Origin: Fonticula-like sp. SCN 57-25
Taxonomy: Eukaryota
DNA length: 56,765 nucleotides
Direction: 5' to 3'
NCBI GenBank assembly: GCA_001724245.1
Contig: MEDX01000020.1
Span: 1-56,765, forward strand
Numbering within the stretch: position 1 is the stretch's first letter; each line of letters opens with the position of its first letter. This document shows positions 6,684 through 30,975 of the stretch, in pieces. Under the pieces are notes generated by a model. It made no database searches, was not told where the DNA came from, and saw nothing but the letters and a program-made list of their open reading frames with translations. The position numbers and the translations under genes were made by a program.

Positions 6684-7694
6684 ATGGGGAAAGCGCCGAG
6701 GAAGCGAAATAAGCAGCAGCCGCAACAGCAGAATCCGGAGCAGCAAGCGCCTGTATGGTTTGTTCAAATTCCAGTGTTTGTGCCATTCGAGACGGATGCT
6801 GATGGTACGAGCGCCGAGCTGCGCCTGGGATTTGCTTGTCGCGCTAACGCGCCATCGTACATCAAAGCAACGACAGCTCCTTACACGGAGCAATGGACGT
6901 CGGGGTATGCTCCACGCGAGGAGACATCATCCAGCAGCGGGGATGCAGGTTCATCAATGGATGGCACCCTTGAAGCACATTTTGCAAACTCGTCGGATGA
7001 TCGAGCTGCCCGACATGTCGCACATCTCGCGCACCATCACGAAACGCGTAGAGCGCCTGAAGGCGCGTTTGCGAGTGACAATGATGGTTATTATAGACCA
7101 GAAAGCGCCTCGTTCGCGCTGGACGACATTGTCACTCGCCACGCTGTCAACAATGACGAGGAACCTGGGCTCCCGCCGTCAAACGTAGAGACGGGGGCAT
7201 CCGGGGCGCGGTTGGCCCCGCAACCCACTAGAATCCGGCGCCCAATGAACTCCTTCTTTCTCTTTCGCCGCGAGCAACACGAGCGGCTACAGCGGGCATC
7301 GCCGGGGCTGTCGACAACAGACATTTCCAAGCTCGTCGCCAGGCTTTGGAAAGAACTACCGCCGGAGAGCAGGCGGGTGTATCGGGAACGCGCGCACCAA
7401 ACTATGAGAATGGTTATTGAGAATAACCCGGGATGGCGCTACTCGTCATCGCAAGGGCGCGCGTCCCGCGCGAGCCAATCAGCTGCCGCAGTGCCCGAGG
7501 CAACCCATCAGGCCCCTGCTGCTGTGCCCGAATCGCCGTCGGCCTATTCGCATGGTAGCCTTCAAGATGTTGCCCTATATGACGATTCGCTTTCAGACCA
7601 AGGCGCCTTGTCTGACAACGGCACGGAACCTATGCTTCCGGATGACGCGTCCGTGCACCAATATTACGAGAATATGCTTCTTTGGCCGTCCTGA
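6684..7694 (+). CDS. Sequence-specific HMG-box transcription factor (SOX/TCF/MATA_HMG class), intronless
   Basis: RIRRPMNSFFLFRREQHERLQRASPGLSTTDISKLVARLWKELPPESRRVYRERAH...NPGWRY. Confidence 0.9.
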   Translation: MGKAPRKRNKQQPQQQNPEQQAPVWFVQIPVFVPFETDADGTSAELRLGFACRANAPSYIKATTAPYTEQWTSGYAPREETSSSSGDAGSSMDGTLEAHFANSSDDRAARHVAHLAHHHETRRAPEGAFASDNDGYYRPESASFALDDIVTRHAVNNDEEPGLPPSNVETGASGARLAPQPTRIRRPMNSFFLFRREQHERLQRASPGLSTTDISKLVARLWKELPPESRRVYRERAHQTMRMVIENNPGWRYSSSQGRASRASQSAAAVPEATHQAPAAVPESPSAYSHGSLQDVALYDDSLSDQGALSDNGTEPMLPDDASVHQYYENMLLWPS

Positions 7695-8224: not shown

Positions 8225-9433
8225 TTAAAATGAATTGCGGTGCATGGTGAGGCGGTTCATTCCGGTACCCCCCATGCCGTTGGACATGGGGTTGGAAGAT
8301 GCGAGAGGCCTCGAGCCCGCGCCGGCATTGGTGGCGGCGGCGGCGGCAGCAGCAGCGGCGGCGGCGGCAGCACTCGCTGTTGACTTGCGCCTCAGCAGCT
8401 TGGCGGTACATACGTCGAGCGGCTCGTTCGGGTCATAGGGAATACCGCGCATGCCGGCGAGCTCGCGATGCAGCCTGCGAATCGTCTTGACGAGCTCGAG
8501 GTTCTTCTGGATGAGCGCGTGCGACGCGTTCTCGAGCTCCTGTAGATACTCCTTCTTCTTCTCCCGACTACGCCTCGCCGCCACGCGGTTGCGCTCCTGG
8601 CGCCGGTGCAGCAGCTCCTCAGCCTCGTCGTCGGTATTCGACATCATCTGCGAGCGGCGGACACCATTCAACATGCGCATGCCCGACGTCGGCGAATCCT
8701 CGCGGCTAAACGCGCCCGGATCGTTGAGGTTCATAATGGAGAGGCCCTCGGGGCTGGCCGTGCCCTGCTCGCTGTGGTTCAGGTTGTTGCCCGCCAGCAG
8801 GTCGAGAAGCATCGCATTGCTCGGCGCCCTGGTTCCCGTCGAGCTGCTCGCGCCTGCGCTGGACTGCTCGCTCTCGTCCGTGTCCATCGAACTGTCGTCG
8901 TCGCTCGATGCCGAATAGCCGCTCTCCACCTTGATAGTCGGCGCCGCTGCCCGCGCAAAAGGCGCAGGCGCGCGGTTGGTGCGGGCAATATAAATCGCGG
9001 GCCTCTCGCTGCCCGCGTTGTATTCGCTCGTCTTGACTGCGTTCACCGCGCCAGCCGCGCTAAACTCGGGCTGAACAGCAGCAGCGGCAGCAGTCGGTGC
9101 CGGAGACGCAGCAAAACGCGGAGGGCGGGCACTGGATCCGTCCTGCGCTTCGTCCATCGCGCGCAGCTGCTGCTCAAAGACGTGCTGCAGATGCTGAGCG
9201 GTAGTCTGCTGAGCGGCGATGGCACTTGCGGACGGCGGCGGCCCCGCGTTGCCGAAAGCAAAGGGCGCAGTGTTCACGGCCGATCCAAAGAGCCCGCCCA
9301 TGCCGACCGACTCGTTAAGCAGCCCGCTGGCAGCGCTGAACCCAGCAAAAAAGTCGGCACCAAAGTCATCGTGGTGAGAGGCGGCCCCACCGATGCCGTA
9401 GTTGGTGGCCACGTCGTGCTGCAGGATATCCAT
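8225..9433 (-). CDS. bZIP transcription factor, intronless
   Basis: Basic region RRQERNRVAARRSREKKKEY followed by leucine heptads LQELEN...LIQKNLELVKTIRRLHREL; first ATG at 9433. Confidence 0.9.
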   Translation of the reverse strand: MDILQHDVATNYGIGGAASHHDDFGADFFAGFSAASGLLNESVGMGGLFGSAVNTAPFAFGNAGPPPSASAIAAQQTTAQHLQHVFEQQLRAMDEAQDGSSARPPRFAASPAPTAAAAAVQPEFSAAGAVNAVKTSEYNAGSERPAIYIARTNRAPAPFARAAAPTIKVESGYSASSDDDSSMDTDESEQSSAGASSSTGTRAPSNAMLLDLLAGNNLNHSEQGTASPEGLSIMNLNDPGAFSREDSPTSGMRMLNGVRRSQMMSNTDDEAEELLHRRQERNRVAARRSREKKKEYLQELENASHALIQKNLELVKTIRRLHRELAGMRGIPYDPNEPLDVCTAKLLRRKSTASAAAAAAAAAAAAATNAGAGSRPLASSNPMSNGMGGTGMNRLTMHRNSF

Positions 9434-10706: not shown

Positions 10707-12155
10707 ATGGCGACGCTGACCACGACGAACGGCAACCCGGTTGACAACAACCAGGTCTCGCTGACCGCCGGTGCGGGCGGCCCGATCCTCCTCCAGGACT
10801 TTCACCTGATCGACAAGCTCTCGCACTTTGACCGCGAGCGCACCCCCGAGCGTGTTGTGCACGCCAAGGGCGCCGGCGCGCACGGCTTCTTTGAGGTGAC
10901 GCACGATGTCAGCGACATCTGCAAGGCCAAGTTCCTTAACGCGATTGGCAAGCGCACGCCGACCTTCCTGCGCTTCTCGACCGTCGGCGGCGAGAAGGGC
11001 TCGGCCGACACGGCGCGCGATCCCCGCGGCTTCGCCCTCAAGTTTTACACCGAGGAGGGCAACTGGGACATGACCGGCAACAACACGCCCGTCTTCTTCA
11101 TCCGCGACCCGATCAAGTTCCCCGACTTTATCCACACCCAGAAGCGCAACGCTCGCACCAACCTCAAGGACGCTGATGCCGTCTGGGACTTTGCCTCGCT
11201 CGCCCCCGAGTCGATCCACCAGTTCTCGGTCCTCTTCTCGAACCGCGGCACGCCCGACGGCTTCCGCCACCTCAACGGCTACTCGTCCCACGCCCTCAAG
11301 GTCGTCAACGCGCAGGGCGTCCCGCACCTCGTCCAGTGGCACTTCAAGACCAACCAGAAGATCAAGAACCTCTCGGACGCCCAGGCGGGCAAGATCGCCG
11401 GCGACGACGCCGACTATGCCACGCGCGACCTCTTTGACTCGATCGAGCGCGGTGACTTCCCCAGCTGGAACGTCTTTGTCCAGGTCATGACCATGGAGCA
11501 GGTCGCCACCTACCGCTGGAACCCGTATGATGTCACCAAGGTGTGGCCCCACAAGGACTTCCCCCTGCGCCCCGTCGGCCGCCTCACGCTCAACCGCAAC
11601 CCCGAGAACTACTTCGCCGAGGTGGAGCAGGCTGCCTTTTCGCCGTCGCACATGGTGCCCGGCATTGAGCCGTCGCTCGACAAGATGCTCCAGGGTCGCC
11701 TCTTCTCGTACCCCGACACCCACCGCCACCGCCTCGGTGTCAACTACACCAGCATCCCGATCAACACGCCGTTCGCCGCGCGCGTCGCCAACTACCAGCG
11801 CGATGGCGCCGCCGTCGTCAACGGCAACGGCGGCTCGGGCCCCAACTACGAGCCCAACTCGGCTGGAGGCCCCGTCCAGGCCGGTGCCTACGCCGCCGTC
11901 CACAAGTTCCCCGTCCAGGGCGTCGCTGAGCGCGCCATTGTGCCCATCACCGACGACGACTTTGCCCAGGCCGGCAACCTCTACCGCCTCCTCTCGGCCA
12001 GCGAGAAGACCGACCTTGTCAACAACATCGTCGGCTCCATGAGCGGCGCCAAGAAGCACATCCAGCAGCGCCAGGTGGCCCACTTCAAGCGCGCCGACCC
12101 CGAGTACGGCGCCCGCATTGAGGCCGGCCTCCTCAAGCAGTCCACCAAGCTGTAA
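10707..12155 (+). CDS. CAT: Monofunctional heme catalase, peroxisomal (PTS1-like -TKL), intronless
   Basis: FDRERTPERVVHAKGAGAHG, RFSTVGGEKGSADTARDPRGFALKFYTEEGNWD, QGRLFSYPDTHRHRLG; ends QSTKL*. Confidence 0.98.
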   Translation: MATLTTTNGNPVDNNQVSLTAGAGGPILLQDFHLIDKLSHFDRERTPERVVHAKGAGAHGFFEVTHDVSDICKAKFLNAIGKRTPTFLRFSTVGGEKGSADTARDPRGFALKFYTEEGNWDMTGNNTPVFFIRDPIKFPDFIHTQKRNARTNLKDADAVWDFASLAPESIHQFSVLFSNRGTPDGFRHLNGYSSHALKVVNAQGVPHLVQWHFKTNQKIKNLSDAQAGKIAGDDADYATRDLFDSIERGDFPSWNVFVQVMTMEQVATYRWNPYDVTKVWPHKDFPLRPVGRLTLNRNPENYFAEVEQAAFSPSHMVPGIEPSLDKMLQGRLFSYPDTHRHRLGVNYTSIPINTPFAARVANYQRDGAAVVNGNGGSGPNYEPNSAGGPVQAGAYAAVHKFPVQGVAERAIVPITDDDFAQAGNLYRLLSASEKTDLVNNIVGSMSGAKKHIQQRQVAHFKRADPEYGARIEAGLLKQSTKL

Positions 12156-13522: not shown

Positions 13523-16500
13523 ATGTTTGGCAACAAGAAGAAGCCCCCGGTGAGCAACGCCGCGGAGGTGACAAAGACTGCGTCGGTGCCTGCGTCGCCG
13601 CTTTCTGAGAGCCCGACGTCTCGCCTGGTGCGCAGATTGCTTGATTTTGTTGCCCATCTAACCAGCTCTTGCCACCAAATCGTAGCCGTCGACCCACACG
13701 CTGTCGGCGCGCCCGAGCTCGGACAGTTTGAATAGCCTGACCCACTCCATTTCCGCGTCGCAGTCTGCAGGAGACGACGATGACGACGATCTCTTTGCCG
13801 GCATGGAAGTGAAGACCGCTGAGCCCTCCGCCGAGCCGGCCGCCGAGCCGGCCTCTTCGACCGGCGGCTCTGCATTCTCCTTCTTGGCGGCCACGCCGTC
13901 CGCCAGCGCAGAGCCGGAGGAGGAGGAGGAGGTTGAGGAGCCGAGCTCTACCTCTGCATTTGACTTTATGGGAACTAGTGACTCCCCTTCATTGCACGAG
14001 AGCGAAGAATTGGTCGGGGAGGTACTAGCCGAGGAGGAGGCCACGCACGAGGAGGCGCCCAATGGCACCCTGGACGCACAGGAGGGTGCTGAAGGCGAGC
14101 ACGACGCAGAGGAACTGGCGATCGAGGCGGACACTCATGAAGCCATTGCCGCGGAGGAGCCCGCTACCGAAGACGCCGAGGAGCACGGTGCCGCGCCGTC
14201 CAGCTTCTCGTTCCTGGGTTCGACCACCAGCGCGGCATCCCTCGACGCGGCGCAGGAGGAATCCGAAGATGACCTTTTGGATGGCGTCGTTGTCCATGAG
14301 ACGCCGGCGTCAGGAAGCGCGTTTGACTTTGTTGCGCCGAATAGCACGAGTAGCATCGATGATCTTGTCGATTCCCCCGCTGCTGTCACCGCCACTGCCA
14401 TCCCCAGTGCGACCTCTGCCGCTGTCAGCGCTCCCGTGTCTGCTGCTGCTTCCGCTGCACCTGTCGTCGCCCCGGCGTCTCGCAAGAAGAAGCTCTCCAC
14501 GTTCTTTGGGTTCCGCTCCGCGTCGTCGTCCGCGGTCGAAGCAAAGCCCTCCTCGGCCGAGTCGCAGCCAAAGGCGGCGCCGCCTGCCAGGGCTGCCGCG
14601 TCGTCCTCGTCCATCACCGCCGCGCCTGTTGCGCCCCCGTCTGCGGCCAACCCCGTTCGGTCTGCGTCGGTGGCGGTCGTTGCTGAAGACGCCGCCCCGG
14701 TGGCTACCCCCAAGAATGCCCCGCCGGCGGCTGCTCGCTCGACAACGCCGCCCCCCGCTGCGGCTAACTCGTATGCTGTCTTGTCGCCCGCGGCGCCGGT
14801 GGCGCGCGAGTCGCTCGAGGACGCCGTACTGTATGCGGAGGCGCGCGTCACGACGCTTCGGGATCGCTTTGCGCGCCTTGACGGCGAGCAGCATTCGCTG
14901 CTCAACATGCTTGTTGAGGTGTCCAAGGAGCTTTTGTCGACGCAGCTGCAGCTGAATGCGACAGAGCAGGACCAAATTGCCGCCGGCGACCGCGAGGACT
15001 ACAACCAGGCTGAGCAGCTCAACGACGTGATTGACGGCCTCAAGCGCCACCTGGACCAGCTTAACAAGCGCATCAAGTCGATCAACGAGTCGCTCAAGCA
15101 GCACCACGACCGCAAAGTGCACATGGTTGAGGCGGAGGTGTCCGTCCGCTCCGAGCTCTTTGGGCGGCTCACGTCGCTGCAAGGCAAGGAAGATGAGGCG
15201 TTCCGCGATTACTGCAAGTCAGCGTCGTCCTCGCACGTCAAGCGCAAGAACATGCTCGAGATCGAGCGCGACCGCATTCAGCGCAAGCGCACGCAGGTGA
15301 CCCACGAGGCAAAGCTGGTCGACAGCAGCGAGCAGGAGCTGCAGGAGCACGTCCATGCCGACGGGCGCGAGTTTTACGAGCAGCGCGATACGCTCGTAAA
15401 GGAGCGCTCGCTGGTCCAGGGCGAGATCGACGAGCTGGAGGCGAAGCTCGCGACGCTGCGCCTCCACGAGTCATCGCTGTCGGAGAAGATTGGCTCGCTA
15501 GAGGACAGCATCCAGGATATTTCCGCAAAGTATGCGTCAAAGCTGGAGGTGCTGCAGCAGGAGCGCGCGGATGTGCAGGAGCGCAACAGGGAGCTCGACC
15601 GCGCCGAGCTCACGGTGCAGGAGAGCGAGCGCAATCTCGACAAGGAGCGCGTCGAGTTGGCCAAAACGGTCGACTTGAGAAAGGACAAGCTGTCCCAGAT
15701 GCGCGCGCGCATTGTCTCGGTCGTCGATACGACATCGCGCCTCTCGAAAAGCGCTCAGTTTACCAAGGATTATTTGCTGTCGCGCAAAAAGACGCAGGAC
15801 CAGCAGGGCGAAAAGGAGTCCGAGCTCGTTCGGTGCGCTATTTGCCTCGTTTTCGTATTGTTGTTGACGTTTTACTTGCAGCCTGCGTCGCCAGCGAGAC
15901 GAATTGGACGAGCAGCTGCGTCAGGCCCATGCGTCGCAGTCGGATGCCGAGAATGCGCTTTCCAAGCTCACGTTTGAGGTGGCCGCCTTGACGCAGCGCA
16001 TGCTGCAGCTGGACCACCTGAAGCGTCAGGCCGTCGCCGGTACGCACCCATTCATGCCCCTAATCGCGTGCTCACGACTGCGCAGAGCGCAATTTCCGCG
16101 AGGCCGGCCGTGTCGCCACCGAGATCAAGACGTCCACGACCCGCCTTGAGGCCGCGTCGGCCGAGCAGCGGGAGGTCCGCCTGTCCATCGAGCAGCACGC
16201 CGAGAACCTCGAGCAGGGCAAGCGCCGATTCCGGGAAGCCAACCAGGCGCTGGAGTTGGCCGAGAAGAAGCAGGCGATGGAGACGCTGGAGAACATGGAG
16301 CCCGTGCTCGAGCAGATGCGCGAGACGCGCCACCAGTACGCGCCGCTGTTTTTTTGTTTCCCTTTCTGACGCTTTTTCAGGGCCATCCGCCAGGGCGTCG
16401 CCGACATTGTCCTGTACCTCCGCCACGAGCACGTTCGCGTGTTTGCCGAGCTGCTGCTCAAGCGGCTGCAACTCGGCCTCGCCGTCGACACCTTCCCGAC

Positions 16501-17272
16501 GATCGAAGAGTTCCTCGCCGCCGAGGAGAAGGAGGATAGGCTGCTCGAGGAGGCCCTTCGCGCGGCTCCCCCGCCCGCCGCCGCACCCACTGGGCCGGCT
16601 TTCAGCCCCGCGTCGTCGCTGTTGTTCTCCCCGAGCTTGAGCGGCCGCTTGGGAAGCGCCTCAACGCCGTCCCCGAGCCCGCTCAAGGGCGGCAGCGCCT
16701 TGTCCGCCGCCGTACCGAGCCTTCTTTCGGGCAGCGTCGTTGATGCGGCCGACGCGGCGGCGGTGTCGTCGCCAGCCGACGACCTCATGCTCGTCGACTT
16801 TAGCGCGCCGGCGCCCTCGGAGGCTGCGGCGGGCGGCGAGGCCGACGAAAAGGTCAAGGCGCCAGCGCACGAGGAGGAGAGCGTCGAGTCGCTCCGCAAG
16901 GATGAGGCGTCGGTGCGGTCCCTGCTGTCGTCCGTGTCGGTCTGGATCGAGCAGCTCAAGGCGCAGCTTGATATCGCCGTCGAATCGGAGGACTACGAGG
17001 CCGCCGGTGCGGTTTATACTTTTAAGATGTCGACAAGTCGCTGACTTTTTGTGATAGAAACGCTGAACAACGAATTGCAGGAGCAGCAGGAGCACAATAA
17101 CCGCCTCCAAGAGCAGCTCGACCGCCTGCTGGAGCGGCTTGCCGCCACAGAAGCGGGTGCCGTGGAGCCTGCCGCAACCGAGGATAAGGAGGACGAGGTA
17201 GAACAGACCGAGGAGGGTGAGGATGGCAAGATCGCCGAGCCCGCTGGCGGCGACAGTGAGCTTGCCGAATAG
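13523..17272 (+). CDS. Large coiled-coil protein with UVR (UvrB/C) motifs and an acidic disordered N-terminus carrying adaptor-binding motifs, multi-exon
   Basis: Exon 1 MFGNKKKPP; long heptad region; UVR-like QIAAGDREDYNQAEQLNDVI and QLDIAVESEDYEAA; N-terminal DLFAGMEV, SAFSFL, SAFDF, SSFSFL. Confidence 0.75.
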
Positions 17273-17385
17273 ACGCAGAGCTATGCATGTGCTGATTATA
17301 TCATAATAGAATGAACATTTTACATGGCGCTTGATTTCGCAAAACATTGGGTCACAAACAGATCTGAATCAACCGCTGATTATTA

Positions 17386-21757: not shown

Positions 21758-24240
21758 TTATACAAGCTGCTCGTCCTCGAGGAAGCGGTAGTCAAAGACA
21801 AAGTCGGACTTTTTACGCGGCGACCATGTGGTCTCGTGGTCAAAGTAGACGTACGTCCCCTGCTCGTAGTCGTCCGTGATCGACTTGGGCTCCTCGTGCC
21901 GCTGGAACCACATGTTGTGCTTCTTGTGGAACCGCCAGCTCTGCCGCTTGAGCTCGCGCGCTGCGAGGTACTGCGCGTACGTCCCGCTCTGCGCGTAGAA
22001 AATGAAGAACAACGTGTCCGTGTCAAACATTGAAAACAGGGCGGGGTTCTCGAGGCCGGAGAGCGGCTGCTGCGGAAAGTACGCCGGCGTCGGCGTAGGG
22101 TTGCGCGGCCAGTACGCGCGAGGCCTGAAAAGACACACATGTAAGCAAAAAAGCGCATATCGCCGCAAGCAAGCGCACCTGTCGACCTCGGGCGCCTCGG
22201 CGCGGTTCTGGTGGCTCTGGTAGCTGGCGTCAAAGTGGGCCAGGTGCGCGGGCGTCGCCTCGCTGCGGTTGCTGTTCCGGAGCATCCTGAACGCCTGCGC
22301 GAGGTCGGCGAGAAGCGGCGGCATCCCGTGCTCAAAGGCGCCAAACGGAAAGTCGCGCTCCTCCTCCTTGTGCTCGGTGAGCGCGGCCGTCGGCGGCGAC
22401 AAAGAAGCGCCAGGCGCCTTGCTGATCAGCTCGGGCTTGCCCGCCAACTCTGGCTCGCTCCCCTTGGCAGCGACGGCGGCGGCAGTCGTAGGCTTAGACC
22501 CCTGAATCGCCTAGCAACAGATGCTCAGAGCCGGCCAATCAGAAAGCCAAAAAAGCGTACGGGGAACGGGTCGGCGGCCTTGGCGGCAGTCGGGACCTCC
22601 TGCTTCTGCGGCGCAACAACGCCGGCAAACGTCGGGGCGGAAGGCGCAGTCTACACAAACCCACCGTCAGCAACGCAAAGAAAAGCGCACGAGGGGCAGT
22701 ACCTTGTTTGGAAGGCCAGCAGCCACGACGGCCGAAAGCGGAATTGGCGTCGTGCCATCTGGAAACACAATATTGGTGAGCAAGCACAGAAAAGGACAGG
22801 ATAAAACAAACCCTTTTTTTGTGAGACGACCGAGGCAGCAATGTTCGGAACGATGACGGGCGCAAAATTGGGCGTCGGCGGGACTGCCGAAGTGGAAGAC
22901 GCCGCCTTCCCCAATGGCATCGCCGAGCTCTGCATGGGAACCGTCGGCGCAGCAGCGCCCTTCTTCATGGGCGACAATGGCGCGGCCTTCTCGGCGACGG
23001 GAGCGGTCGTCGGAATCGGTACTGACGCAACGGCCTTCTTGCTTCCTGCCAACACTGGCGCTGCGAGCGGGGCGGCAGCGGCGGCGGCAGCGGCAGGGGC
23101 CGCCACAGGCGCACTCTTCTTCTCGTCCTCGCCCGCCGAGCTTGTTGTGCGCTTCTTATTGGCCCACTCGTTCACGACGGGTACGCTGGCAGCCGCCAAC
23201 GATGCCGACGATGCCGAGGCGCTGGCCGGCGGCGCCACCGGCTCGGGCTCAACCTCCTTTGCGGCGGCCGCCCTTGCCTTGTGCGATTCCCGCTTGGACA
23301 CGGGGGCTGGCGGGCGCGAAAGGTCAGCACTCGCTGCTTTTCGATATAACAAGAAAGGCGTACCGTCGTCGTCGTCAGAATCGTCGTTGTTGTGCTCGTC
23401 GTCGCTGTCAAAGGTCTCCGGGAGGTTGAGGTCGTCGTAGAGCGTCTCGTCGTCCATAAAGTCGGGGTCCTGGTTCTCGCGAATATAGTACGTGATTCCG
23501 TCCTGGATGCCGTTCACTTCCTCCGGGTCCAGCGCGTCGTTGTCTATCATCCGCATAATGATTTCAAGCCGCTTTTGGTGGTACTTGTGCGTCTCCAACC
23601 GCTGCGTGAGCATGTCGAGCTTCTCGGCCGCTGGGTTCTTCCCCTTGCGCGACGTCAGCTGGATGGCCTCGGCGTCCGCCTCGTCCTTGTCCACCTGCAC
23701 CTGAAGCTCGTCCAGCAATGTACTGATCCATTTAGACGTCTCGTACTTGGCTTTTGTCTTCGGGTCCATTTTGTTCGAAGCAAGGCCCTCTTTTGAAAAG
23801 GCTTTCGTCTTCATTTCCTTTTCACAGGCCTTAAACTCCTCCATTTTCTTCAACTACCGTGAGCAAACAGGCGCAAAATAAGCGGGCGAGGTGGGGCGTA
23901 CCGACTCGATGAGTTTCCTTTGGTCGACGAGGGGCGCCTTGTCCTTGACTTCACTCGACGCATACCACGTCTTGATCTGATCACGGAAACGCTGAAGCTT
24001 CTTGATTTCGCGCTTCAAGTCGGCCTCGTACTTCTCCTTCAAGTTCTGCGCCGTGGAGGCCTTGAGCTTCTCCATAATGTCATCGAACTCGACGATGCCT
24101 TCGGTGATTCGCTTGAACGTCTTGTCAATCTCGCCTGCAAAAAAGGCGCCGCAAAAAGAAAGTCGCGGCAAACCATTTAGTACCAAAAAACCAAAAGCAA
24201 GCGCGCAATAAATACCTTGGAGTTTTCTCCCAGACGCCAT
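21758..24240 (-). CDS. CNOT3: CCR4-NOT complex subunit NOT3/CNOT3, multi-exon
   Basis: MASGRKLQG^[12 protein letters not shown]...[38 protein letters not shown] box DTLFFIFY...[29 protein letters not shown]. Confidence 0.96.
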
Positions 24241-24633: not shown

Positions 24634-27600
24634 ATGGCGCACTCCATGAAGGCCAAGGACGAGGACATTGGTGCGTTGCTGCTTGTTAAATGGTTTTGTT
24701 ACAGTGGCTTTTGAATGGCCATCATTATTTGTCACTTTTTTCCTTTGCATCGCTCGCTTGCGGTTTGCCTCGTGCTAAACTGGGTGGGTCGTTTCAGAGC
24801 CGACGCCCTTCTCGCAGATCGACAAGAGCCAAGTACTGCAGGAGGCGCGCATCTTCAATGACAATCAATTGAATGTCCGGAAATGCAACTTGCTATTGAC
24901 CAAGATCCTCTATCTGCTCTACCAGGGCGAGACGGTCGGAACGGTCGAGGCCACTGAGCTGTTCTTTGCCATCACCAAGCTTTTCCAGTCCAAGGATGTA
25001 CGTCTTGCTCACTCTTTGCGGCGCTTCTATCGCCTGCCTGTTTGTACCTGTGCTTGTGTTTGGTGTGTTATATTATGGAAATGAGTATTAACTGCTTTTT
25101 TTCCTCATACTCAGGTGATGCTGCGCCGGATGGTGTACCTCGCCGTCAAGGAGCTCAGCGGCACGGCCCAGGATGTCATTATGGTGACCAGCAGCCTGCA
25201 AAAGGACATGAACTCCAAGACGGAAGTGACGTACCGTGCGAGCGCCATTCGTGCGCTTTGCAAGATTACCGACGTACGCTGCTTTCCTTTTGCTTTTTGC
25301 CTGCTCATGTGTTTATTTTTCAGCCGTCGATGATCACGCTGATTGAGCGGTTCATCAAGCAAGCCATCGTGGACAAGACGCCCAACGTAGCCAGCGCTGC
25401 GCTTGTTTCGGCTCTGCATTTGTACAACGACAACAAGGACGTAGTTAAGCGCTGGGTCAACGAGGCACAGGAGGCGATCAATAGCAAGTGTACGTCGACG
25501 ATGGCAAGTGATTTCTTGCGCTGACTTTTGTGTCTTTTCTCCCTCAGCTGTGGCCGTTCAGTACCACGCCATTGGTCTCCTTTACCAGATCCGTCAGAAG
25601 GACCGCATGGCCGTCACCAAGCTTGTGCAGACCTGGTCCAAGGCCGGGCTCCGGTCCGCGTACGCGCATGTCATGCTCATCCGCTACGCTGTCAAGGTTA
25701 TGGAGGAGGAGGACTCATCCGATGGGTGCGTCGAACTAGCGCGCTTTCTCGTTTTTACTGACGTCGTGGCAGTCCCGGTCGCTCCATGTACGACTTTTTG
25801 GAGAACTCGGTCCGCCACCGCAGCGAGATGGTCGTGCTCGAGGCCGCGCGTGCCATCTGCGGCCTCCACGGTGTGACGAGCAAGGAGCTCATCCCCGCCA
25901 TTGCCGGTACGTTTTTCTATCTTAATGGCGCTGTGGTCGCCTGACTGTATCCGCGTAGTCCTTCAGCTCTTCCTTGCGTCGCCGCGCCCGACTCTGCGCT
26001 TTGCGGCCATCCGCACGCTCAACAAGGTGGCCGCCACGCACCCCGTTGCCATTTCGCCGTGCAATCTTGACATGGAGAACCTCATCACCGACCCGAACCG
26101 CTCCATCTCGACGCTCGCCATCACGACGCTGCTCAAGACGGGCAACGAGGCGTCCGTCGACCGCCTCATCAAGCAGATCGAGGGATTCATGTCTGAAATC
26201 TCGGACGAGTTCAAGGTCGTCGTGGTCGAGGCCACGCGCGCCCTCTGCATCAAGTTCCCCACCAAGCAGTCGGTCCTGCTCAACTTTTTGGCCATGTGCC
26301 TGCGCGAGGAGGGCGGGTTCGAGTACAAGAAGGCCATCGTCGACGCGCTGATCCACTTTGTCTCAAATATCCCCGACGCCAAGGACTTTACCCTGTCGCA
26401 CCTCTGCGAGTTCATCGAGGACTGCGAGTTCCCGCAGCTGACCGTGGACGTGCTCCACACGCTCGGCCGCGAGGCGCCGCAGTCGACCCACCCCGGCAAG
26501 TACATCCGCTACATTAACAACCGCGTGATCCTCGAGGGCCCGCAGGTCCGCGCCGCTGCCGTCTCGGCCTTGACCAAGTTTGGCCTCCACCTCGAGTCGC
26601 TTCGGCCGTCGATCCTCGTCCTCTTGAACCGCTGCCTCCACGACGCGGATGACGAAGTCCGCGACCGCGCCGCGCTCAGCGTCGACCTTTTGCAGAGCGC
26701 CTCGCCGCAGACCAAGCCCCTCATCGCCTCTGGTGCGACAGCGCTCCTCTGCTTTGTATTTTTGCTCACCTCGCTGTGTAATTTTTCAGAGCTCACGTAC
26801 TCGGCTGCCGCCCTCGAGCGTGCGCTCGCGACCTACCTCAGCGACCCGACCGTGCACGTCAAGCGCTTCGAGTCGCGCACGGTGCCGCTGGTGCCCATTG
26901 CCCAGGAGCTCGTCGCGCAGCCCACCAAGAAGGAGATTGCCGCCGCTGCCGAGGCCACCGAGGCCGTGCGCGCTGCGACTGCCGCCGCCGTCCCCGCCGT
27001 GTCCGAGGCGCGCCAGCAGGAGCAGTACGCCGAGCAGCTCGCCCGTATCCCCGAGCTCGCCCGCTTTGGCTCGCTCCTCAAGTCGTCCAAGGCCACCCCG
27101 CTCACCGAATCCGAGGTACGCTCGCCTCCTGAGGCGCTTTTATATGCCGACACTAAATTTTGCAGACCGAGTACAAGATTTCGGTCGTCAAGCACCTGTT
27201 CCCGCGCCACATCGTGCTCCAGTTTGACTGCCGCAACACGCTCAACGACCAGTTGCTGGAGAACGTGTCCGTTGCCGTCGAGACCGACACCAATGAGATC
27301 CGCCAGGTGTACTCGAGCACAATTGCCACGCTTGCCTACGACGAGCCGCAGACGTGCTTTGTGGCGTTCCAAAAGGCCGAGGGCTCGTGCCCTATCGGTA
27401 CGCGCCGCTTGCTCTGCCTTTAGTATGTTTGCTTACATGCCTGCCGCAGCCTCTTTTGCCAATACGCTGCAGTTTGTTGTCAAGGACTGCGACCCTGAGA
27501 CCGGCGAGGCCGACCCGCAGGGCTACGACGACGAGTACCAGCTGGAGGAGACGGAGCTCACGCTCGCGGACTATGTCGTCCCGACCAATGTGGCAAGCTT

Positions 27601-27959
27601 CATGGACGCGTGGAAGGAGCTCGGCAACGAAGTGACCGAGACTTTCCAGCTTTCGGCTCTGCAGACGCTGACCGGTACGTTGCGGTCAGTTAATGCTTTT
27701 GGTCGCTAACCCCTTTTGTGCAGCTGCGGTTGATAGCGTCACTGACTTTTTGGGCATGCGCGCTGCCGAGCGCTCGAACACGGTGCCGTCGGGTAAGACG
27801 TCGCACGTGCTTTTGCTGTCGGGCATGCTTCTCGGCCGCACCCGCGTGCTGGCACGCTGCCGCATGGCCGTCCACTCGTCCAATGGCGTTGCCATGGAGC
27901 TCTCCGTTCGCTCCGAGGACCCCAAGGTGTCTGAGCTCGTCGCCAGCGCCATCAGCTAA
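24634..27959 (+). CDS. COPG: Coatomer subunit gamma, multi-exon
   Basis: [90 protein letters not shown]. Confidence 0.97.
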
Positions 27960-28444: not shown

Positions 28445-30975
28445 TTAGAACAAGGACGAAATCACATACGCGACCACCGGCGAGATGATCAAAAAAGCGG
28501 CGCCCTGCAAGCGAATCGTGAGCAAAAGGCAAATTTTCACACTGCGGCGCGTACCAATTTAGAGCTGCTATCCTCTGACGAGGCCGCCTCGAGCTGATTC
28601 ACCCTCCTCGTGAGGCCTGCAAATGCAAAATGAGTAACTTATGGGAGCAAGGGAGTGGCGTACTCTCGAGCAGCTGAGAGATGCGTTCGTCCTCGGACGC
28701 CAATGAAGAAGTCGGCGCTTTGGCAGCGCCCCCCGCGGCCGACGAGGCGGCCGGCGCGCCTCCGACGACCTTGTCGTTGACGGTGATGGATCCGTTCCTG
28801 CCCGCGGCGACGCGAACCTCAACCTCTGTGCCATCGGCTTCGGGCGCAAACTCAATGCTCACGCCTCCGGTGACGGCTGCAGCCGACTTTACCGCGGTGC
28901 TCGGGGTAAAGGTGACCGTGGCGCCCGCCGCAGCAAAGCGCTTGGCGGGCAGGCGCAGCTCGGTCTTTGCGCTGGCGTTGAGCTTGACGGTGAACTTGCC
29001 GCCAAACACGCCGCTGTCGTGGTCAAAGCTGAGCCCGTGGCGGTCCACAGCCTGCAGCGACGAGAACAGCGCGGGCGCGCCGTGCGCCCCGAGGTACGAA
29101 ACGACGTGCGCCACAGTCTCGGGGAGCCCGTTTGCAACCGTCTGCAGCAAAACGCGTTAATTTGCGGGCGGGCCTGGAATTCGGCGGCGGCGTACCTGGA
29201 GGATGAAGGCAGGGATGCTGCCGGCGAGGTCAATGTCTGTAATGTACGAGATCTCGGTGCCGCCGTTGGGCCGGGGGCGCAGCCGCCACCCGTTAAGGCG
29301 GAGGTGCGCGCGGACCTTGTCGCTCTTGGTGGGCACCTTGGGGTCCTCGACGGACGTCGAGCAGATCCACAGGGTGCCATCGGCGTCGCTCCAGCGGCGC
29401 GTGACGACGCACATGTCGCGGCCGCTCGTCGGCCACTGCCCCTTGGTCGCCGTGTACGTCAGCGTCGTCGACGAGTCAAGCGCCTCGACCACCTGGACGC
29501 TCTCGAGCAGCTTGTCCCCTTGACCACCCACAGTGTCAGACAAAAATACAACAACACAGGCGGATGCGTACAGATTTTGCGCGCCGAGTTGCTGTCGACG
29601 ACGGCGGCCACCTCGTGCGGCGAGTACGCGTCGGTGACGAGGACACCGCGCACGACCGGCAGCGGCTGCACCGGCGTCGGCTTTTGGAGAATCTGGACGC
29701 CCTTGGCGGTGCCCTTGTCCAGCCAGTCGGTCTCGTCCGAGATCTGGATGTAGCGCGCGCACGCCGCGTCGATCTGCGCGCGGTAGCGGTGGTCGCCCTG
29801 CTCCTGCGCGACGACCTCGCCGCTTGCTGGCGCGGCAGAAGAGGAAGCAGCAGCGGCGGGCTTTTCCATGCCCTCGGCCGTGACCGTGCAGCCGTTCAGC
29901 ACCGCCTTAAAGGGGCCCGATGCGCTCGGCGCAATGGTCAGCGTCACGCGCTTGCCACCCATGTCCTTGTGCTCCAGCACCAAAATGCCGTCGTCCAGAA
30001 GGCGCGCGCCCACGCCTGCAAAGCGCCCATGTCAGTCGCCCCGCCCGTGTGGCATGTCCCTTTCCGTAACGTACCGGCGGAGAGGGTACCCGTGTAGCCG
30101 CTCTTGTACCGCTTGTCGCTGACAAAGACGTGCGTCTCGCCGCCGAGGCTGTCGTCCACGTCAAAGTCGAGTGTGAAGCGCGACGACTCGTGGTCAAAGT
30201 CGGGCGTGGCGCGGAGAAGGCCGCCCATGAGCACCGGGTACGGCGGCGGGCCGTGCTGCAACAGGTACTTGCGGATAGAGTAGACGCACAGAGGAATCTT
30301 GTTGGCGACCATCTTGATGATCGACCCAGGAATGCTGCCCTTCAAGTCAATGTCATTCACATTGACGACGCGCACGCCGCGGTTGTCACTCAGCGGCTCA
30401 ATCAACCAGCCGTTCAGCTTGATCTCACCGCGCACCTTGCCCGACACGGTGGGCACGAGCGGGTCCTCCACCGCGCAGCCGGCCCCGATAATCGTGCCGT
30501 CCTCCCGTGTGCGCGTTCCGAGCACAAGGCAAAAGTCGCGGCCGCTCGTCGGCCACTGGCCCTTTGACGAGGCGTACGAGAGAATGGAGCGCGGGCCGAG
30601 CATGCTCACCGCGCGGCCGCTCTCAAACAGGGGATCCCCTACAAAAAAGTTAGAGGGAATTAGACACAAGTGAAAGTGCGCACAGACGACGCGGCAGCCT
30701 GGGAGCTGTGACGCTCCGTAAAACTCAATTGGAGAAAAGCCTTCGATAATTCCGATGCCGCGCAGAATGCCAAGAGGGCGGCCAGGCACATCCTTGCGGG
30801 TAATCTCGACCCCCTTCTCGTCGGCGACGACTTCCCAGCCAGTCTCGCGGCTGATGCGCTCAACGGCATCAAGCGCCTCGCGCTCCTGGGCAGCGTAGCG
30901 GTGGTTCGGCTCCTCCTTGGTGGCATACCGCGAGTAAGCGGTGTTTGCCGACGGGGCTGCGGCCGCCGTCTCCAT
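28445..30975 (-). CDS. Tandem START-domain lipid-transfer protein with C-terminal coiled coil and tail-anchor TM, multi-exon
   Basis: Two homologous START units (KGQWPTSGRDFCLV / KGQWPTSGRDMCVV; DIDLKGSIP / DIDLAGSIP); last exon GAAFLIISPVVAYVISSLF*. Confidence 0.85.

What the first reader, a model, noticed from the sequence alone, without database searches (positions are those of the whole stretch)
13788..14333. Both tepsin-type AP-4 ear-binding motifs in a non-tepsin UVR/coiled-coil protein: candidate unrecognised AP-4 accessory factor or tether
Seen: the disordered acidic N-terminus has DLFAGMEV (13788-13811) and four repeats: SAFSFL (13869-13886), SAFDFM (13953-13970), SSFSFL (14199-14216) and SAFDFV (14316-14333). 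Established: tepsin binds the AP-4 beta4 ear via LFxG[ML]x[LV] and the epsilon ear via S[AV]F[SA]FLN. This protein shows no ENTH/VHS domain; it has a long coiled coil and several UVR motifs. Inference: a multivalent AP-4 partner, possibly a golgin-like vesicle tether.
Basis: partly seen in the sequence, partly recalled or inferred. Interest (0 to 1): 0.7.

Follow-up and report, generated by a model that had tools for sequence, protein, structure and literature searches.

The report
DISC1 homologue with AP-4-type docking motifs
This gene of an unidentified microbial eukaryote encodes a relative of the human scaffold protein DISC1, and its disordered front end carries five short motifs, conserved from diatoms to amphioxus, that match the peptides tepsin uses to dock on the AP-4 vesicle adaptor; this gives a testable but unproven idea of what DISC1 originally did.

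Summary
All five motifs are at the stated coordinates, and none of 200,000 shuffles of the protein gave four S.F.F[LMV] copies.

The protein is not an unknown family. It is a six-exon, 1166-aa member of the DISC1 family, with three UVR-like hairpins. It matches amphioxus DISC1 at E 8e-14. Amphioxus DISC1 in turn matches mouse DISC1 (PDB 9rux) at E 2.6e-14.

The motifs are family-wide. Of 122 relatives, 67 carry both types, always in the order [LM]FxG[LM]x[LVI] and then S.F[SD]F[LMI]. Diatoms, Diphylleia and amphioxus DISC1 are among them. Oomycetes keep only the first type, in arrays.

The second motif corresponds to human DISC1's FSFI, which was reported as an LC3-binding site (PMC6351828). 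This gives a real rival reading.

AP-4 binding could not be tested. No genome is held for this metagenomic contig, and no AP-4 sequence could be obtained. Three library searches found no published DISC1–AP-4 link.

This scan had already noted the same idea on Naegleria DNA (e1-633944, e1-1923080).

Verdict: a new member of a known family. It carries a conserved, unpublished and testable AP-4 hypothesis, which I put at about 0.4.

The parts
13523..17273 (+). Whole gene, hand-built model. Exons are 13523-13627, 13686-15832, 15882-16039, 16086-16335, 16381-17006 and 17058-17273 (stop included). The product is 1166 aa.
   Evidence: five GT..AG introns of 58, 49, 46, 45 and 51 nt give one open frame. 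GC3 is 0.72-0.94 in the exons, and intron GC is 0.39-0.61; the spliced model aligns colinearly with relatives across the junctions. There is no RNA evidence.
13523..13627 (+). Exon 1 (35 aa, begins MFGNKKK). It is the N-terminal cap and resembles the N-termini of oomycete relatives.
   Evidence: relatives from Phytophthora, Aphanomyces, Achlya and Diphylleia begin with similar Met-Phe/Leu-Gly/Arg...Lys-rich starts.
13788..13811 (+). DLFAGMEV: the single [LM]FxG[LM]x[LVI] motif (tepsin beta4-ear type). It follows a run of six Asp.
   Evidence: It matches the published LFxG[M/L]x[L/V] (PMC13335578). The family has 135 instances of this motif.
13869..13886 (+). SAFSFL: copy 1 of the S.F[SD]F[LMIV] motif (tepsin epsilon-ear type; corresponds to the DISC1 FSFI motif).
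   Evidence: The family logo comes from 273 instances.
13953..13970 (+). SAFDFM: copy 2.
14199..14216 (+). SSFSFL: copy 3.
14316..14333 (+). SAFDFV: copy 4.
14478..14513 (+). Basic patch followed by Phe-Phe-Gly-Phe (SRKKKLSTFFGF). It holds the position of the KKKR...RPG[YF] patch that follows the motifs in relatives.
   Evidence: relatives from amphioxus, Diphylleia and oomycetes, and P0112, carry [KR]3-6 followed by RPG[YF]. P0087 and P0105 carry FFKGF instead.
14991..15053 (+). UVR-like hairpin 1 (REDYNQAEQLNDVIDGLKRHL). Through amphioxus DISC1, its Tyr aligns with the mouse Tyr in the UVR1 stretch.
   Evidence: One search gives the alignment to P0098, and one search gives P0098 to 9rux_A. 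AF2 places a helix-turn-helix break at residues 436-438 of exon 2. PMC13273187 section 7 names Y371 as a conserved interface residue.
16018..16129 (+). UVR-like hairpin 2 (LKRQAVAERNFREAGRVATEIK). It spans intron 3 (16040-16085).
   Evidence: it aligns with the corresponding stretch of amphioxus DISC1; that stretch aligns with the mouse DISC1 UVR2 stretch. The Phe and the Ala three residues later are kept (compare F598 and A601 in PMC13273187).
16982..17086 (+). UVR-like hairpin 3 (ESEDYEAAETLNNELQEQ). It spans intron 5 (17007-17057).
   Evidence: Pfam UVR at E 0.015 on the exon 5 part; the third stretch aligns with the C-terminal hairpin of amphioxus DISC1, and that hairpin matches the DISC1-C structures 5yi4 and 6irr.
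16784..16798 (+). LMLVD: a clathrin-box-like pentapeptide in the disordered C-terminal linker. Its role is unverified.
   Evidence: regex only. I did not check its conservation.

Best explanation
The gene at 13523-17273 (+) encodes a DISC1-family scaffold protein of an unidentified eukaryote. Its best relatives are in stramenopiles.

Shown:
- A helical core with three UVR-like hairpins is colinear with amphioxus DISC1 and, through it, with mouse DISC1.
- About 390 disordered, acidic N-terminal residues carry one [LM]FxG[LM]x[LVI] motif and four S.F[SD]F[LMV] motifs.
- This motif set and its order are ancestral to the DISC1 family.
- The second motif corresponds to the FSFI motif of human DISC1.

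Inferred:
- The core self-assembles. It is a tetramer in mouse, so the assembly would display about 4 motifs of the first type and 16 of the second.
- The motifs dock on the beta4 and epsilon ear domains of the AP-4 adaptor, as the two matching peptides of tepsin do.
- The protein would therefore act as a multivalent AP-4 accessory hub that clusters or cross-links the coat and couples it to the partners of the DISC1 core.

My odds: DISC1-family membership about 0.9; the motifs are functional conserved docking sites about 0.9; AP-4 ears are the partner about 0.4.
For: DISC1 identity:
- phmmer of exon 2 against 1.84 billion proteins gave 52 hits at E<=0.001. They included diatom, oomycete, Diphylleia and Branchiostoma proteins.
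- The full spliced model against amphioxus P0098 gave E 8.1e-14 with Z set to the size of that library. The alignment covers 446 residues from UVR1 to UVR2, plus the UVR3 stretch.
- P0098 matches mouse DISC1 9rux_A at E 2.6e-14 in three colinear stretches, and DISC1-C (5yi4, 6irr) at E 1.3e-3.
- P0098 carries a precomputed PF28234 DISC1_C hit, and its B. lanceolatum relatives are named DISC1.
- hhalign of the non-animal family against amphioxus DISC1 gave probability 99.7%, E 2.6e-25, over 596 columns.
- DISC1 homologues with UVR repeats across eukaryotes are already published (PMC13273187 section 7; PMC8527833 passages).

Motifs:
- They are not due to chance.
- Of 122 relatives, 67 have both types, 10 have only the first (oomycetes), 14 have only the second and 31 have neither.
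- The first type precedes the second in 67 of 67, and lies at residue 5 or earlier in 61.
- Amphioxus DISC1 starts M[SA]LFQGMK[VL], then has SLFSFIT about 20 residues later, then a basic patch with RPGY.

Fit to tepsin rather than to a bare LIR:
- Gly is kept at the FxG position in 16 instances where x is not Gly, against 2 instances of the FGx type.
- The second Phe is present in 246 of 246 instances and the leading Ser in 246 of 254.
- Asn is the commonest residue after the motif, in 72 of 273 instances.
- The beta4 motif text is confirmed in PMC13335578.

AP-4 distribution:
- AP-4 and tepsin were reported in all stramenopiles, alveolates, Rhizaria and CRuMs surveyed, and as absent from yeast and Drosophila (PMC12517565 section 11).
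- I saw no lineage with a DISC1 homologue that this survey scores as lacking AP-4. This was not a formal test.
Against: - No AP-4 ear, tepsin or ATG8 sequence could be examined, so binding is inferred from motif likeness alone.
- No genome is held for the contig, so AP-4 in this organism is unknown.
- The only experimental assignment of the homologous motif is to LC3, not AP-4 (human DISC1 FSFI; PMC6351828).
- In the passages I read of AP-4 interactor papers, the named partners are tepsin, RUSC1/2, FHF, ATG9A, SERINC1/3 and AAGAB. DISC1 is not among them. The supplementary tables were not visible.
- None of the window's four copies has the trailing Asn. Two have Asp with Met or Val, which lies outside the epsilon-ear consensus as quoted in the finding. 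That consensus is recalled, and no call confirmed it.
- The window's two best hits in the sandbox search (P0095 from Pinguiococcus, and P0087) carry neither motif.
- Direct links to mouse DISC1 fail. Exon 2 alone found nothing. The profile without amphioxus reached only E 0.57, rank 29 of 33. Foldseek on the partial model found nothing at E<=0.001.
- The motif counts are dominated by diatoms, which are kin and not independent samples.
- Inclusion of the first motif in the protein rests on an intron that no RNA data confirm.
Confidence: 0.45

Rival explanations
1. Same DISC1-family protein, but the motifs are ATG8/LC3-interacting regions. Each S.F[SD]F[LV] copy, and also F-x-G-[LM], contains a [WFY]xx[LIV]-type core preceded by acidic or Ser residues. 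The protein would then be a multivalent selective-autophagy receptor or adaptor, as claimed for human DISC1 in mitophagy. This does not exclude the AP-4 reading.
For: - In human DISC1, mutating 210-FSFI-213 to AAAA nearly abolished LC3 co-immunoprecipitation, and a 20-mer peptide containing the motif bound recombinant LC3 in an ELISA (PMC6351828 section 2.3).
- Three of the window's four copies (FSFL, FSFL, FDFV) fit the LIR core quoted in that paper.
- The beta4-binding motif of tepsin itself is predicted to overlap an LC3B-binding site (PMC13335578).
Against: - A core LIR fixes only two positions. The family also keeps the leading Ser (246 of 254), the second Phe (246 of 246) and the Gly of FxG.
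- Met occupies the last core position in 73 of 273 instances of the second motif and 13 of 135 of the first. By my recollection this is unusual for LIRs.
- The LC3 evidence comes from one laboratory and one species.
Confidence: 0.3
2. Same DISC1-family protein, but the motifs dock on some other partner. Candidates are another appendage or GAE domain (AP-1 gamma or GGA, whose recalled consensus is an aromatic-Gly-x-hydrophobic peptide after acidic residues), COPI appendages, or an unknown reader.
For: - 119 of 135 instances of the first motif are FGG[LM], which fits an FGx-hydrophobic pattern as well as an FxG pattern.
- An acidic run precedes the window's copy.
- Arrays of up to 9-10 copies in oomycete tails resemble the ear-binding arrays of endocytic accessory proteins in general.
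Against: - Where the two Gly positions differ, the second is kept in 16 instances against 2. The window's own copy is F-A-G-M, which does not fit the FGx pattern.
- To my knowledge, no known reader other than the AP-4 epsilon ear is defined by a Ser-small-Phe-Ser-Phe-Leu peptide.
Confidence: 0.2
3. One reading: a previously unrecognised, non-DISC1 golgin-like vesicle tether that captures AP-4 carriers through its tip.
For: Long predicted helices are present: residues 370-714 of exon 2 are helical. The motifs sit at the disordered N-terminus.
Against: - The helical part is homologous to the DISC1 core. In mouse that core folds back through UVR hairpins into a compact tetramer of about 180 x 100 A (PMC13273187 section 6).
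- AF2 shows hairpin breaks and not one continuous rod.
- No membrane anchor or GRIP/GRAB-type domain was found by Pfam.
Confidence: 0.03
4. The motifs are chance products of a low-complexity Ser/Ala/Phe-containing disordered region.
For: The region is compositionally biased and disordered.
Against: None of 200,000 shuffles gave four copies, and only 3 gave both motif types. The motifs are conserved in type and order across distant lineages.
Confidence: 0.005

Closest known systems
DISC1 (Disrupted in schizophrenia 1) family: mouse DISC1 core (PDB 9rux), DISC1-C (5yi4, 6irr), amphioxus DISC1
   Same: - A disordered Ser-rich N-terminal head carries an F-S-F-type motif and a basic patch.
- A helical core has three dispersed UVR-like hairpins in the same order.
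- The interface Tyr of UVR1 and the Phe/Ala of UVR2 are kept in transitive alignments.
   Different: - Identity to any relative retrieved is only 15-24%, and direct searches against mouse DISC1 are not significant.
- The F-S-F motif is present four times, whereas the one human peptide I saw has it once.
- The window protein keeps an LFxGM motif. I could not check this for vertebrate DISC1, because no vertebrate N-terminus was retrieved.
- The RPG[YF] signature after the basic patch is absent here.
Tepsin (AP-4 accessory protein)
   Same: Both carry, in a disordered region, a peptide that fits LFxG[M/L]x[L/V] (beta4-ear motif; PMC13335578) and peptides close to the epsilon-ear motif quoted in the finding. 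Both are therefore candidates for bivalent or multivalent AP-4 ear binding.
   Different: - There is no ENTH or VHS-like domain and no sequence relationship to tepsin.
- The motifs are N-terminal and repeated, whereas in tepsin they are C-terminal (PMC11064669 passage).
- The protein has an oligomerising UVR/coiled-coil core.
- Binding is untested.
LIR-bearing selective-autophagy receptors (the role claimed for human DISC1 in mitophagy)
   Same: Three of the four copies contain the W/F/Y-x-x-L/I/V core, with acidic or Ser residues nearby. The homologous human motif was reported to bind LC3 (PMC6351828).
   Different: The conservation extends to positions a LIR does not need. No ATG8 binding was tested for this protein or for any non-human relative.

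Membership tests
DISC1 family | Significant, colinear sequence similarity to a bona fide DISC1 over the helical core | tested here: met
   - The window model against amphioxus DISC1 P0098 gave E 8.1e-14 (Z 1.84e9), aligning residues 420-865 with 566-1007.
- Exon 2 alone gave E 9.5e-7 in the real library search.
- The family profile against amphioxus DISC1 gave hhalign probability 99.7%, E 2.6e-25.
- P0098 against mouse DISC1 9rux_A gave E 2.6e-14.
- Against: the link is only transitive. The window against the PDB found nothing, and the profile without amphioxus reached E 0.57.
DISC1 family | Three dispersed UVR-like antiparallel helical hairpins (PMC8527833; PMC8683410) | tested here: met
   - There are three E-[DN]-[YF]-x-x-A-type stretches, at residues 471-491, 797-818 and 1088-1105.
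- Each aligns with the corresponding hairpin of amphioxus DISC1.
- AF2 shows a turn at the first.
- Pfam UVR is only weak, at E 0.015 for the third.
DISC1 family | Conserved UVR dimer-interface residues (mouse Y371 in UVR1; F598 and A601 in UVR2; PMC13273187) | tested here: met
   Chaining the alignments, the window's Tyr in R-E-D-Y and its Phe and Ala in N-F-R-E-A fall on the corresponding mouse residues. This is a transitive alignment, not a structural test.
DISC1 family | Long disordered Ser-rich N-terminal head with a conserved F-S-F-[IL] motif and a basic patch | tested here: met
   - pLDDT is below 50 for residues 1-369 of exon 2.
- There are four S.F[SD]F[LMV] copies and a KKK patch.
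- The human peptide with SSFSFI is printed in PMC6351828.
- The amphioxus arrangement was seen.
DISC1 family | Pfam DISC1_C (PF28234) domain | not testable with these tools
   The local Pfam copy did not report PF28234 even for P0098, although P0098 carries it in the precomputed list. The model therefore seems to be absent from the local library.
DISC1 family | Homotetramer built from UVR-mediated dimers | not tested
   The core is split over exons 2-5, and only unspliced translations can be sent to the folding tools. I ran no complex job.
Tepsin family | ENTH domain and VHS/ENTH-like domain | tested here: not met
   Pfam found no ENTH or VHS hit in any of the 5 exon translations at E<=1.
Tepsin-type AP-4 ear ligands (a functional class, not a homologous family) | A peptide that fits LFxG[M/L]x[L/V] | tested here: met
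   L-F-A-G-M-E-V at 13791-13811. The motif text comes from a PMC13335578 passage.
Tepsin-type AP-4 ear ligands (a functional class, not a homologous family) | A peptide that fits the epsilon-ear motif S[AV]F[SA]FLN (as quoted in the finding; recalled, not confirmed by any search) | tested here: inconclusive
   SAFSFL-A fits 6 of 7 positions. SSFSFL-G, SAFDFM-G and SAFDFV-A fit fewer. Relatives often fit fully or differ only at position 2 (for example S-A-F-S-F-L-N and S-G-F-S-F-L-N in diatoms).
Tepsin-type AP-4 ear ligands (a functional class, not a homologous family) | Physical binding to the beta4 and epsilon ears, and AP-4 present in the same genome | not testable with these tools
   No genome is held, and no AP-4 sequence could be obtained for complex prediction.
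LIR-containing ATG8 interactors | Core W/F/Y-x-x-L/I/V flanked by acidic residues (as quoted in PMC6351828) | tested here: met
   FSFL (twice) and FDFV fit, but FDFM does not. Acidic stretches lie nearby. Binding was not tested.

The most novel reading that the evidence does not exclude
The DISC1 family is an ancient, so far unrecognised accessory hub of the AP-4 coat. Its ancestral N-terminus carried one beta4-ear motif followed by repeated epsilon-ear motifs, displayed in multiple copies by the UVR-mediated oligomer. The FSFI motif of human DISC1 would be the remnant of this AP-4-docking array. This would tie DISC1 to the AP-4/ATG9A export pathway, and it would explain why (by recollection) flies, worms and yeast lack both DISC1 and AP-4.
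Probability: 0.4. Interest if true: 0.85.

Novelty: new member of a known kind. Interest (0 to 1): 0.6.

Why it matters
DISC1 has been studied for over two decades as a psychiatric-risk scaffold with hundreds of proposed partners, yet no agreed ancestral function. AP-4 deficiency causes a hereditary spastic paraplegia, and AP-4 has very few known accessory proteins.

Suppose the motif pair seen here, and kept in the same order from diatoms and Diphylleia to amphioxus DISC1, really docks on the AP-4 ears. Then:
- DISC1's core job would be defined as a multivalent AP-4 coat hub.
- The human FSFI motif would need re-examination, to ask whether it binds LC3, AP-4 or both.
- Two neurological disease pathways would be connected.

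The idea can be tested directly with peptides and ear domains.

If it is wrong, the result is still useful. The gene is an ordinary new member of the pan-eukaryotic DISC1 family, and it documents the conserved motif layout of that family's N-terminus.

Tried and rejected
- The whole genome could not be used: none is held, and the genome search gave the same answer. AP-4 presence in this organism was therefore not checked.
- I could not obtain any AP-4 ear, tepsin or ATG8 sequence through the tools, so I ran no complex-prediction job.
- Pfam on the five exon translations gave nothing above the cut-offs.
- A word-based homologue search with exon 2 found only the window's own ORF and one diatom protein.
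- Exon 2 alone against the PDB gave no DISC1 hit.
- The profile without amphioxus, searched against the PDB, placed DISC1 at E 0.57, rank 29 of 33.
- I made an AF2 model of exon 2 and ran Foldseek against the PDB. No match reached E<=0.001, and the best rows were generic long-helix proteins. The fragment lacks UVR2 and UVR3, so this says little.
- Sequencing runs: no RNA holder is listed. The stretch is held in full by one metagenome run that may be its source, and in part by other metagenome runs.
- Naming the organism failed. Exact look-ups of five neighbouring proteins gave no named cluster members. The Atlas search with gamma-COP gave only generic eukaryotic clusters.
- Mattera 2015, Frazier 2016, Archuleta 2017 and Sanchez-Pulido & Ponting 2011 are not held. 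The epsilon-ear consensus, and the original list of DISC1 homologues and any N-terminal motifs it may describe, could therefore not be read. A search for 'tepsin' plus 'FLN' found nothing relevant. A search for 'DISC1' plus 'SF-rich' found 0 papers.
- I searched for a published DISC1–AP-4 link three ways. 'DISC1'+'AP4E1' gave 6 papers, and the one I opened cites DISC1 only in its references. 'DISC1'+'tepsin' gave 2 papers, both gene lists or reviews judging by their titles. 'DISC1'+'AP-4'+'ATG9A' gave 1 paper, the same one. Supplementary interactome tables are closed and might list DISC1.
- I considered and rejected three readings. Nucleoporin-type FxFG repeats do not fit, because no copy has Gly after the second Phe. 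A gamma-ear FGx-type motif does not fit the window copy, which is F-A-G-M (counts). A golgin-like tether is addressed under the rival explanations.
Full report
**1. Observation**

I read the frame that starts at 13686. It gives DLFAGMEV at 13788-13811, SAFSFL at 13869-13886, SAFDFM at 13953-13970, SSFSFL at 14199-14216 and SAFDFV at 14316-14333.

As a chance control I made 200,000 composition-preserving shuffles of the protein model:
- The strict beta4-type pattern appeared in 317 shuffles.
- The mean count of S.F.F[LMV] was 0.011.
- Four or more copies appeared in 0 shuffles.
- Both motif kinds together appeared in 3.

**2. Gene model**

The window is GC-rich eukaryotic DNA (58.7% GC). I built a six-exon model by hand:
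- The exons are 13523-13627, 13686-15832, 15882-16039, 16086-16335, 16381-17006 and 17058-17273.
- The five GT..AG introns are 45-58 nt long.
- The model gives one open frame of 1166 aa.
- GC3 is 0.72-0.94 in all exons, including exon 1 (0.80) and the stretch 13686-13802 (0.77). The introns have 0.39-0.61 GC.

The LFAGM motif lies upstream of the first in-frame ATG of exon 2, so it is part of the protein only if intron 1 is spliced. No RNA run is listed, so this rests on the frame, the composition and the homology of exon 1 to oomycete N-termini.

The contig comes from a metagenome.

**3. What the protein is**

Pfam finds nothing above its cut-offs.

The searches gave these results:
- A word-based search with exon 2 found only the window's own ORF and one diatom protein, P0002.
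- Searching with P0002 gave 85 proteins. Most are diatom 'UVR domain-containing proteins', with a few from oomycetes.
- A full phmmer scan of 1.84 billion representatives with exon 2 gave 52 hits at E<=0.001.
- The named hits are from Aphanomyces euteiches, Achlya hypogyna, Pinguiococcus, Diphylleia rotans and Branchiostoma belcheri.

The amphioxus protein P0098 is a DISC1 orthologue:
- It matches the mouse DISC1 core structure 9rux_A at E 2.6e-14, in three colinear stretches.
- It matches the DISC1-C structures 5yi4 and 6irr at E 1.3e-3.
- It carries a precomputed Pfam DISC1_C hit.
- Its B. lanceolatum relatives are named DISC1.

The window protein links to it in two ways:
- In the sandbox, with Z set to the library size, the spliced window model matches P0098 at E 8.1e-14. 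The alignment covers 446 residues from UVR hairpin 1 to hairpin 2, plus a third stretch on hairpin 3.
- A profile of 21 non-animal members, including the window, aligns with the amphioxus DISC1 profile at 99.7% probability, E 2.6e-25, over 596 columns.

Chaining the alignments places the window's Tyr of hairpin 1, and its Phe and Ala of hairpin 2, on mouse Y371, F598 and A601. PMC13273187 (section 7) names these as conserved UVR dimer-interface residues. The same paper lists DISC1 homologues in sea urchin, Dictyostelium, Monosiga, Arabidopsis, rice and Trypanosoma brucei.

Some results go against this identification or fail to support it:
- Exon 2 alone finds no DISC1 in the PDB.
- The profile without amphioxus reaches only E 0.57 for 9rux.
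- Foldseek with the AF2 model of exon 2 finds nothing at E<=0.001.

The link to vertebrate DISC1 is therefore transitive, through amphioxus. I still put family membership at about 0.9, because the three hairpins, their order, the interface residues and the N-terminal layout all agree.

In the AF2 model, residues 1-369 of exon 2 are disordered and residues 370-714 are helical, with a turn at hairpin 1.

**4. The motifs belong to the family**

I scanned 122 relatives: P0002-P0118 and P0131-P0135. I left out the window's own ORFs and the near-identical cluster members P0119-P0130. The counts are:
- 67 carry both [LM]FxG[LM]x[LVI] and S.F[SAD]F[LMIV].
- 10 carry only the first. These are oomycetes, with up to 9-10 copies, mostly in the C-terminal tail.
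- 14 carry only the second.
- 31 carry neither. Six of these do not start with Met and are fragments. P0095 (Pinguiococcus) and P0087, which are the window's best sandbox hits, also carry neither.
- In all 67 with both, the first type comes first.
- In 61 proteins it starts at residue 5 or earlier. Diatoms begin M-F-G-G-L.

Amphioxus DISC1 proteins begin M-[SA]-L-F-Q-G-M-K-[VL]. About 20 residues later they have S-L-F-S-F-I-T, and then a basic patch with R-P-G-Y. Diphylleia and the metagenomic proteins P0112, P0110 and P0116 have the same order.

The logo of 273 instances of the second motif is S-[G121/A72/S55]-F-[S231/D37/A5]-F-[L176/M73/I21/V3]-[N72/S65/Q34...].

These counts are dominated by diatoms, which are kin. 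The independent lineages number roughly eight: the window organism, diatoms, two oomycete orders, Diphylleia, amphioxus, Umbelopsis (second type only), and several unnamed metagenomic forms.

**5. What the motifs most likely do**

*AP-4 reading.* The first motif fits the published tepsin beta4-ear motif LFxG[M/L]x[L/V] (PMC13335578 passage). The second is close to the epsilon-ear motif quoted in the finding. I know that consensus only from recollection of Mattera et al. 2015, which is not held.

*LIR reading.* The homologous FSFI motif of human DISC1 was reported as a LIR that binds LC3 directly. The evidence was co-immunoprecipitation lost on mutation to AAAA, and a peptide ELISA (PMC6351828). 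Both motif types contain an aromatic-x-x-aliphatic core.

The conservation goes beyond what a LIR core requires:
- The leading Ser is kept in 246 of 254 instances.
- The second Phe is kept in 246 of 246.
- Where the two positions after the first Phe differ, Gly is kept at the second position in 16 instances, against 2 for the first.

The last point also argues against a gamma-ear-type FGx motif (a recalled consensus). The window's own copy is F-A-G-M.

My favoured reading is therefore this. The UVR core oligomerises, as a tetramer in mouse (PMC13273187). It displays the motifs in multiple copies to the AP-4 beta4 and epsilon ears. ATG8 binding is a non-exclusive alternative.

None of this binding was tested here. 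No AP-4, tepsin or ATG8 sequence could be obtained, so I ran no complex prediction.

*Context from the literature.*
- A 53-species survey found AP-4 and tepsin in all stramenopiles, alveolates, Rhizaria, Haptista and CRuMs examined. It found neither in yeast, Drosophila, Leishmania and some others (PMC12517565 section 11).
- Every lineage in which I saw a DISC1 homologue belongs to a group scored there as having AP-4. This is not a formal test.
- That flies, worms and yeast lack DISC1 is my recollection.

*Against the AP-4 reading.* The AP-4 interactors named in the passages I read do not include DISC1. The supplementary tables are closed.

**6. Comparison and novelty**

The gene is a new, divergent member of the known pan-eukaryotic DISC1 family. 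It is not a tepsin, since it has no ENTH or VHS domain. It is not golgin-like either.

A DISC1–AP-4 link was not found in the library. I ran three searches and opened one paper.

The same idea was already noted by this scan on Naegleria DNA (e1-633944 and e1-1923080), so it is not new to the scan. This window adds four things:
- the stramenopile branch;
- the family-wide counts;
- the fixed order of the motifs;
- the fact that amphioxus DISC1 itself starts with the beta4-type motif.

**7. Verdict**

- Identity as a DISC1 homologue: about 0.9.
- AP-4 docking: about 0.4.
- Interest: 0.6.

Noticed in passing
window 25925-27709 (+): A 594-aa ORF has the C-terminal half of Adaptin_N (E 2e-59) and the COPI gamma appendage platform (E 6e-20). 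This is the coatomer gamma subunit, probably with upstream exons. It is an appendage-bearing coat gene 9 kb from the DISC1-like gene. I claim no functional link.
   Followed up: partly
window 37860-45380 (-): A 2506-aa single ORF combines glycosyltransferase family 1 and family 2 domains with a GPS (GPCR proteolysis site) motif near residue 2200. This is an unusual architecture.
   Followed up: no
window 10707-12155 (+); also 6684-7694, 8225-9433, 22651-23844, 29944-30975, 47661-49256: The neighbouring genes, by Pfam, are catalase (E 5e-189), an HMG-box protein, a bZIP protein, a Not3 N-terminal domain, a START domain and an MgtE-type cation transporter. None has a named relative at 90% identity.
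   Followed up: partly
P0081, P0084-P0086, P0088-P0090, P0093 (oomycete relatives): Oomycete DISC1-like proteins (1100-1590 aa) have no S.F.F motif. Instead they carry 5-10 copies of [LMI]F[GSNAV]G[LM]x[LVI]: two near the N-terminus and an array in the C-terminal tail. This motif-type switch could be compared with the AP-4 ears of oomycetes.
   Followed up: partly
window 14478-14513; P0087 and P0105 (residues about 195-200 and 113-117): A further short conserved element follows the motifs: a basic patch and then F-F-x-G-F (window S-T-F-F-G-F-R; P0087 and P0105 T-F-F-K-G-F). It may be the local counterpart of the KKKR...RPG[YF] patch of amphioxus, Diphylleia and oomycetes.
   Followed up: no
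P0104 (597 aa, unnamed): This relative has three copies of a variant without the Phe (L-S-G-L-T-V, L-A-G-M-Q-V, L-S-G-M-M-V) after a basic patch with RPGF.
   Followed up: no
window 16784-16798: A clathrin-box-like L-M-L-V-D sits after an acidic pair in the C-terminal disordered linker. I did not check its conservation.
   Followed up: no
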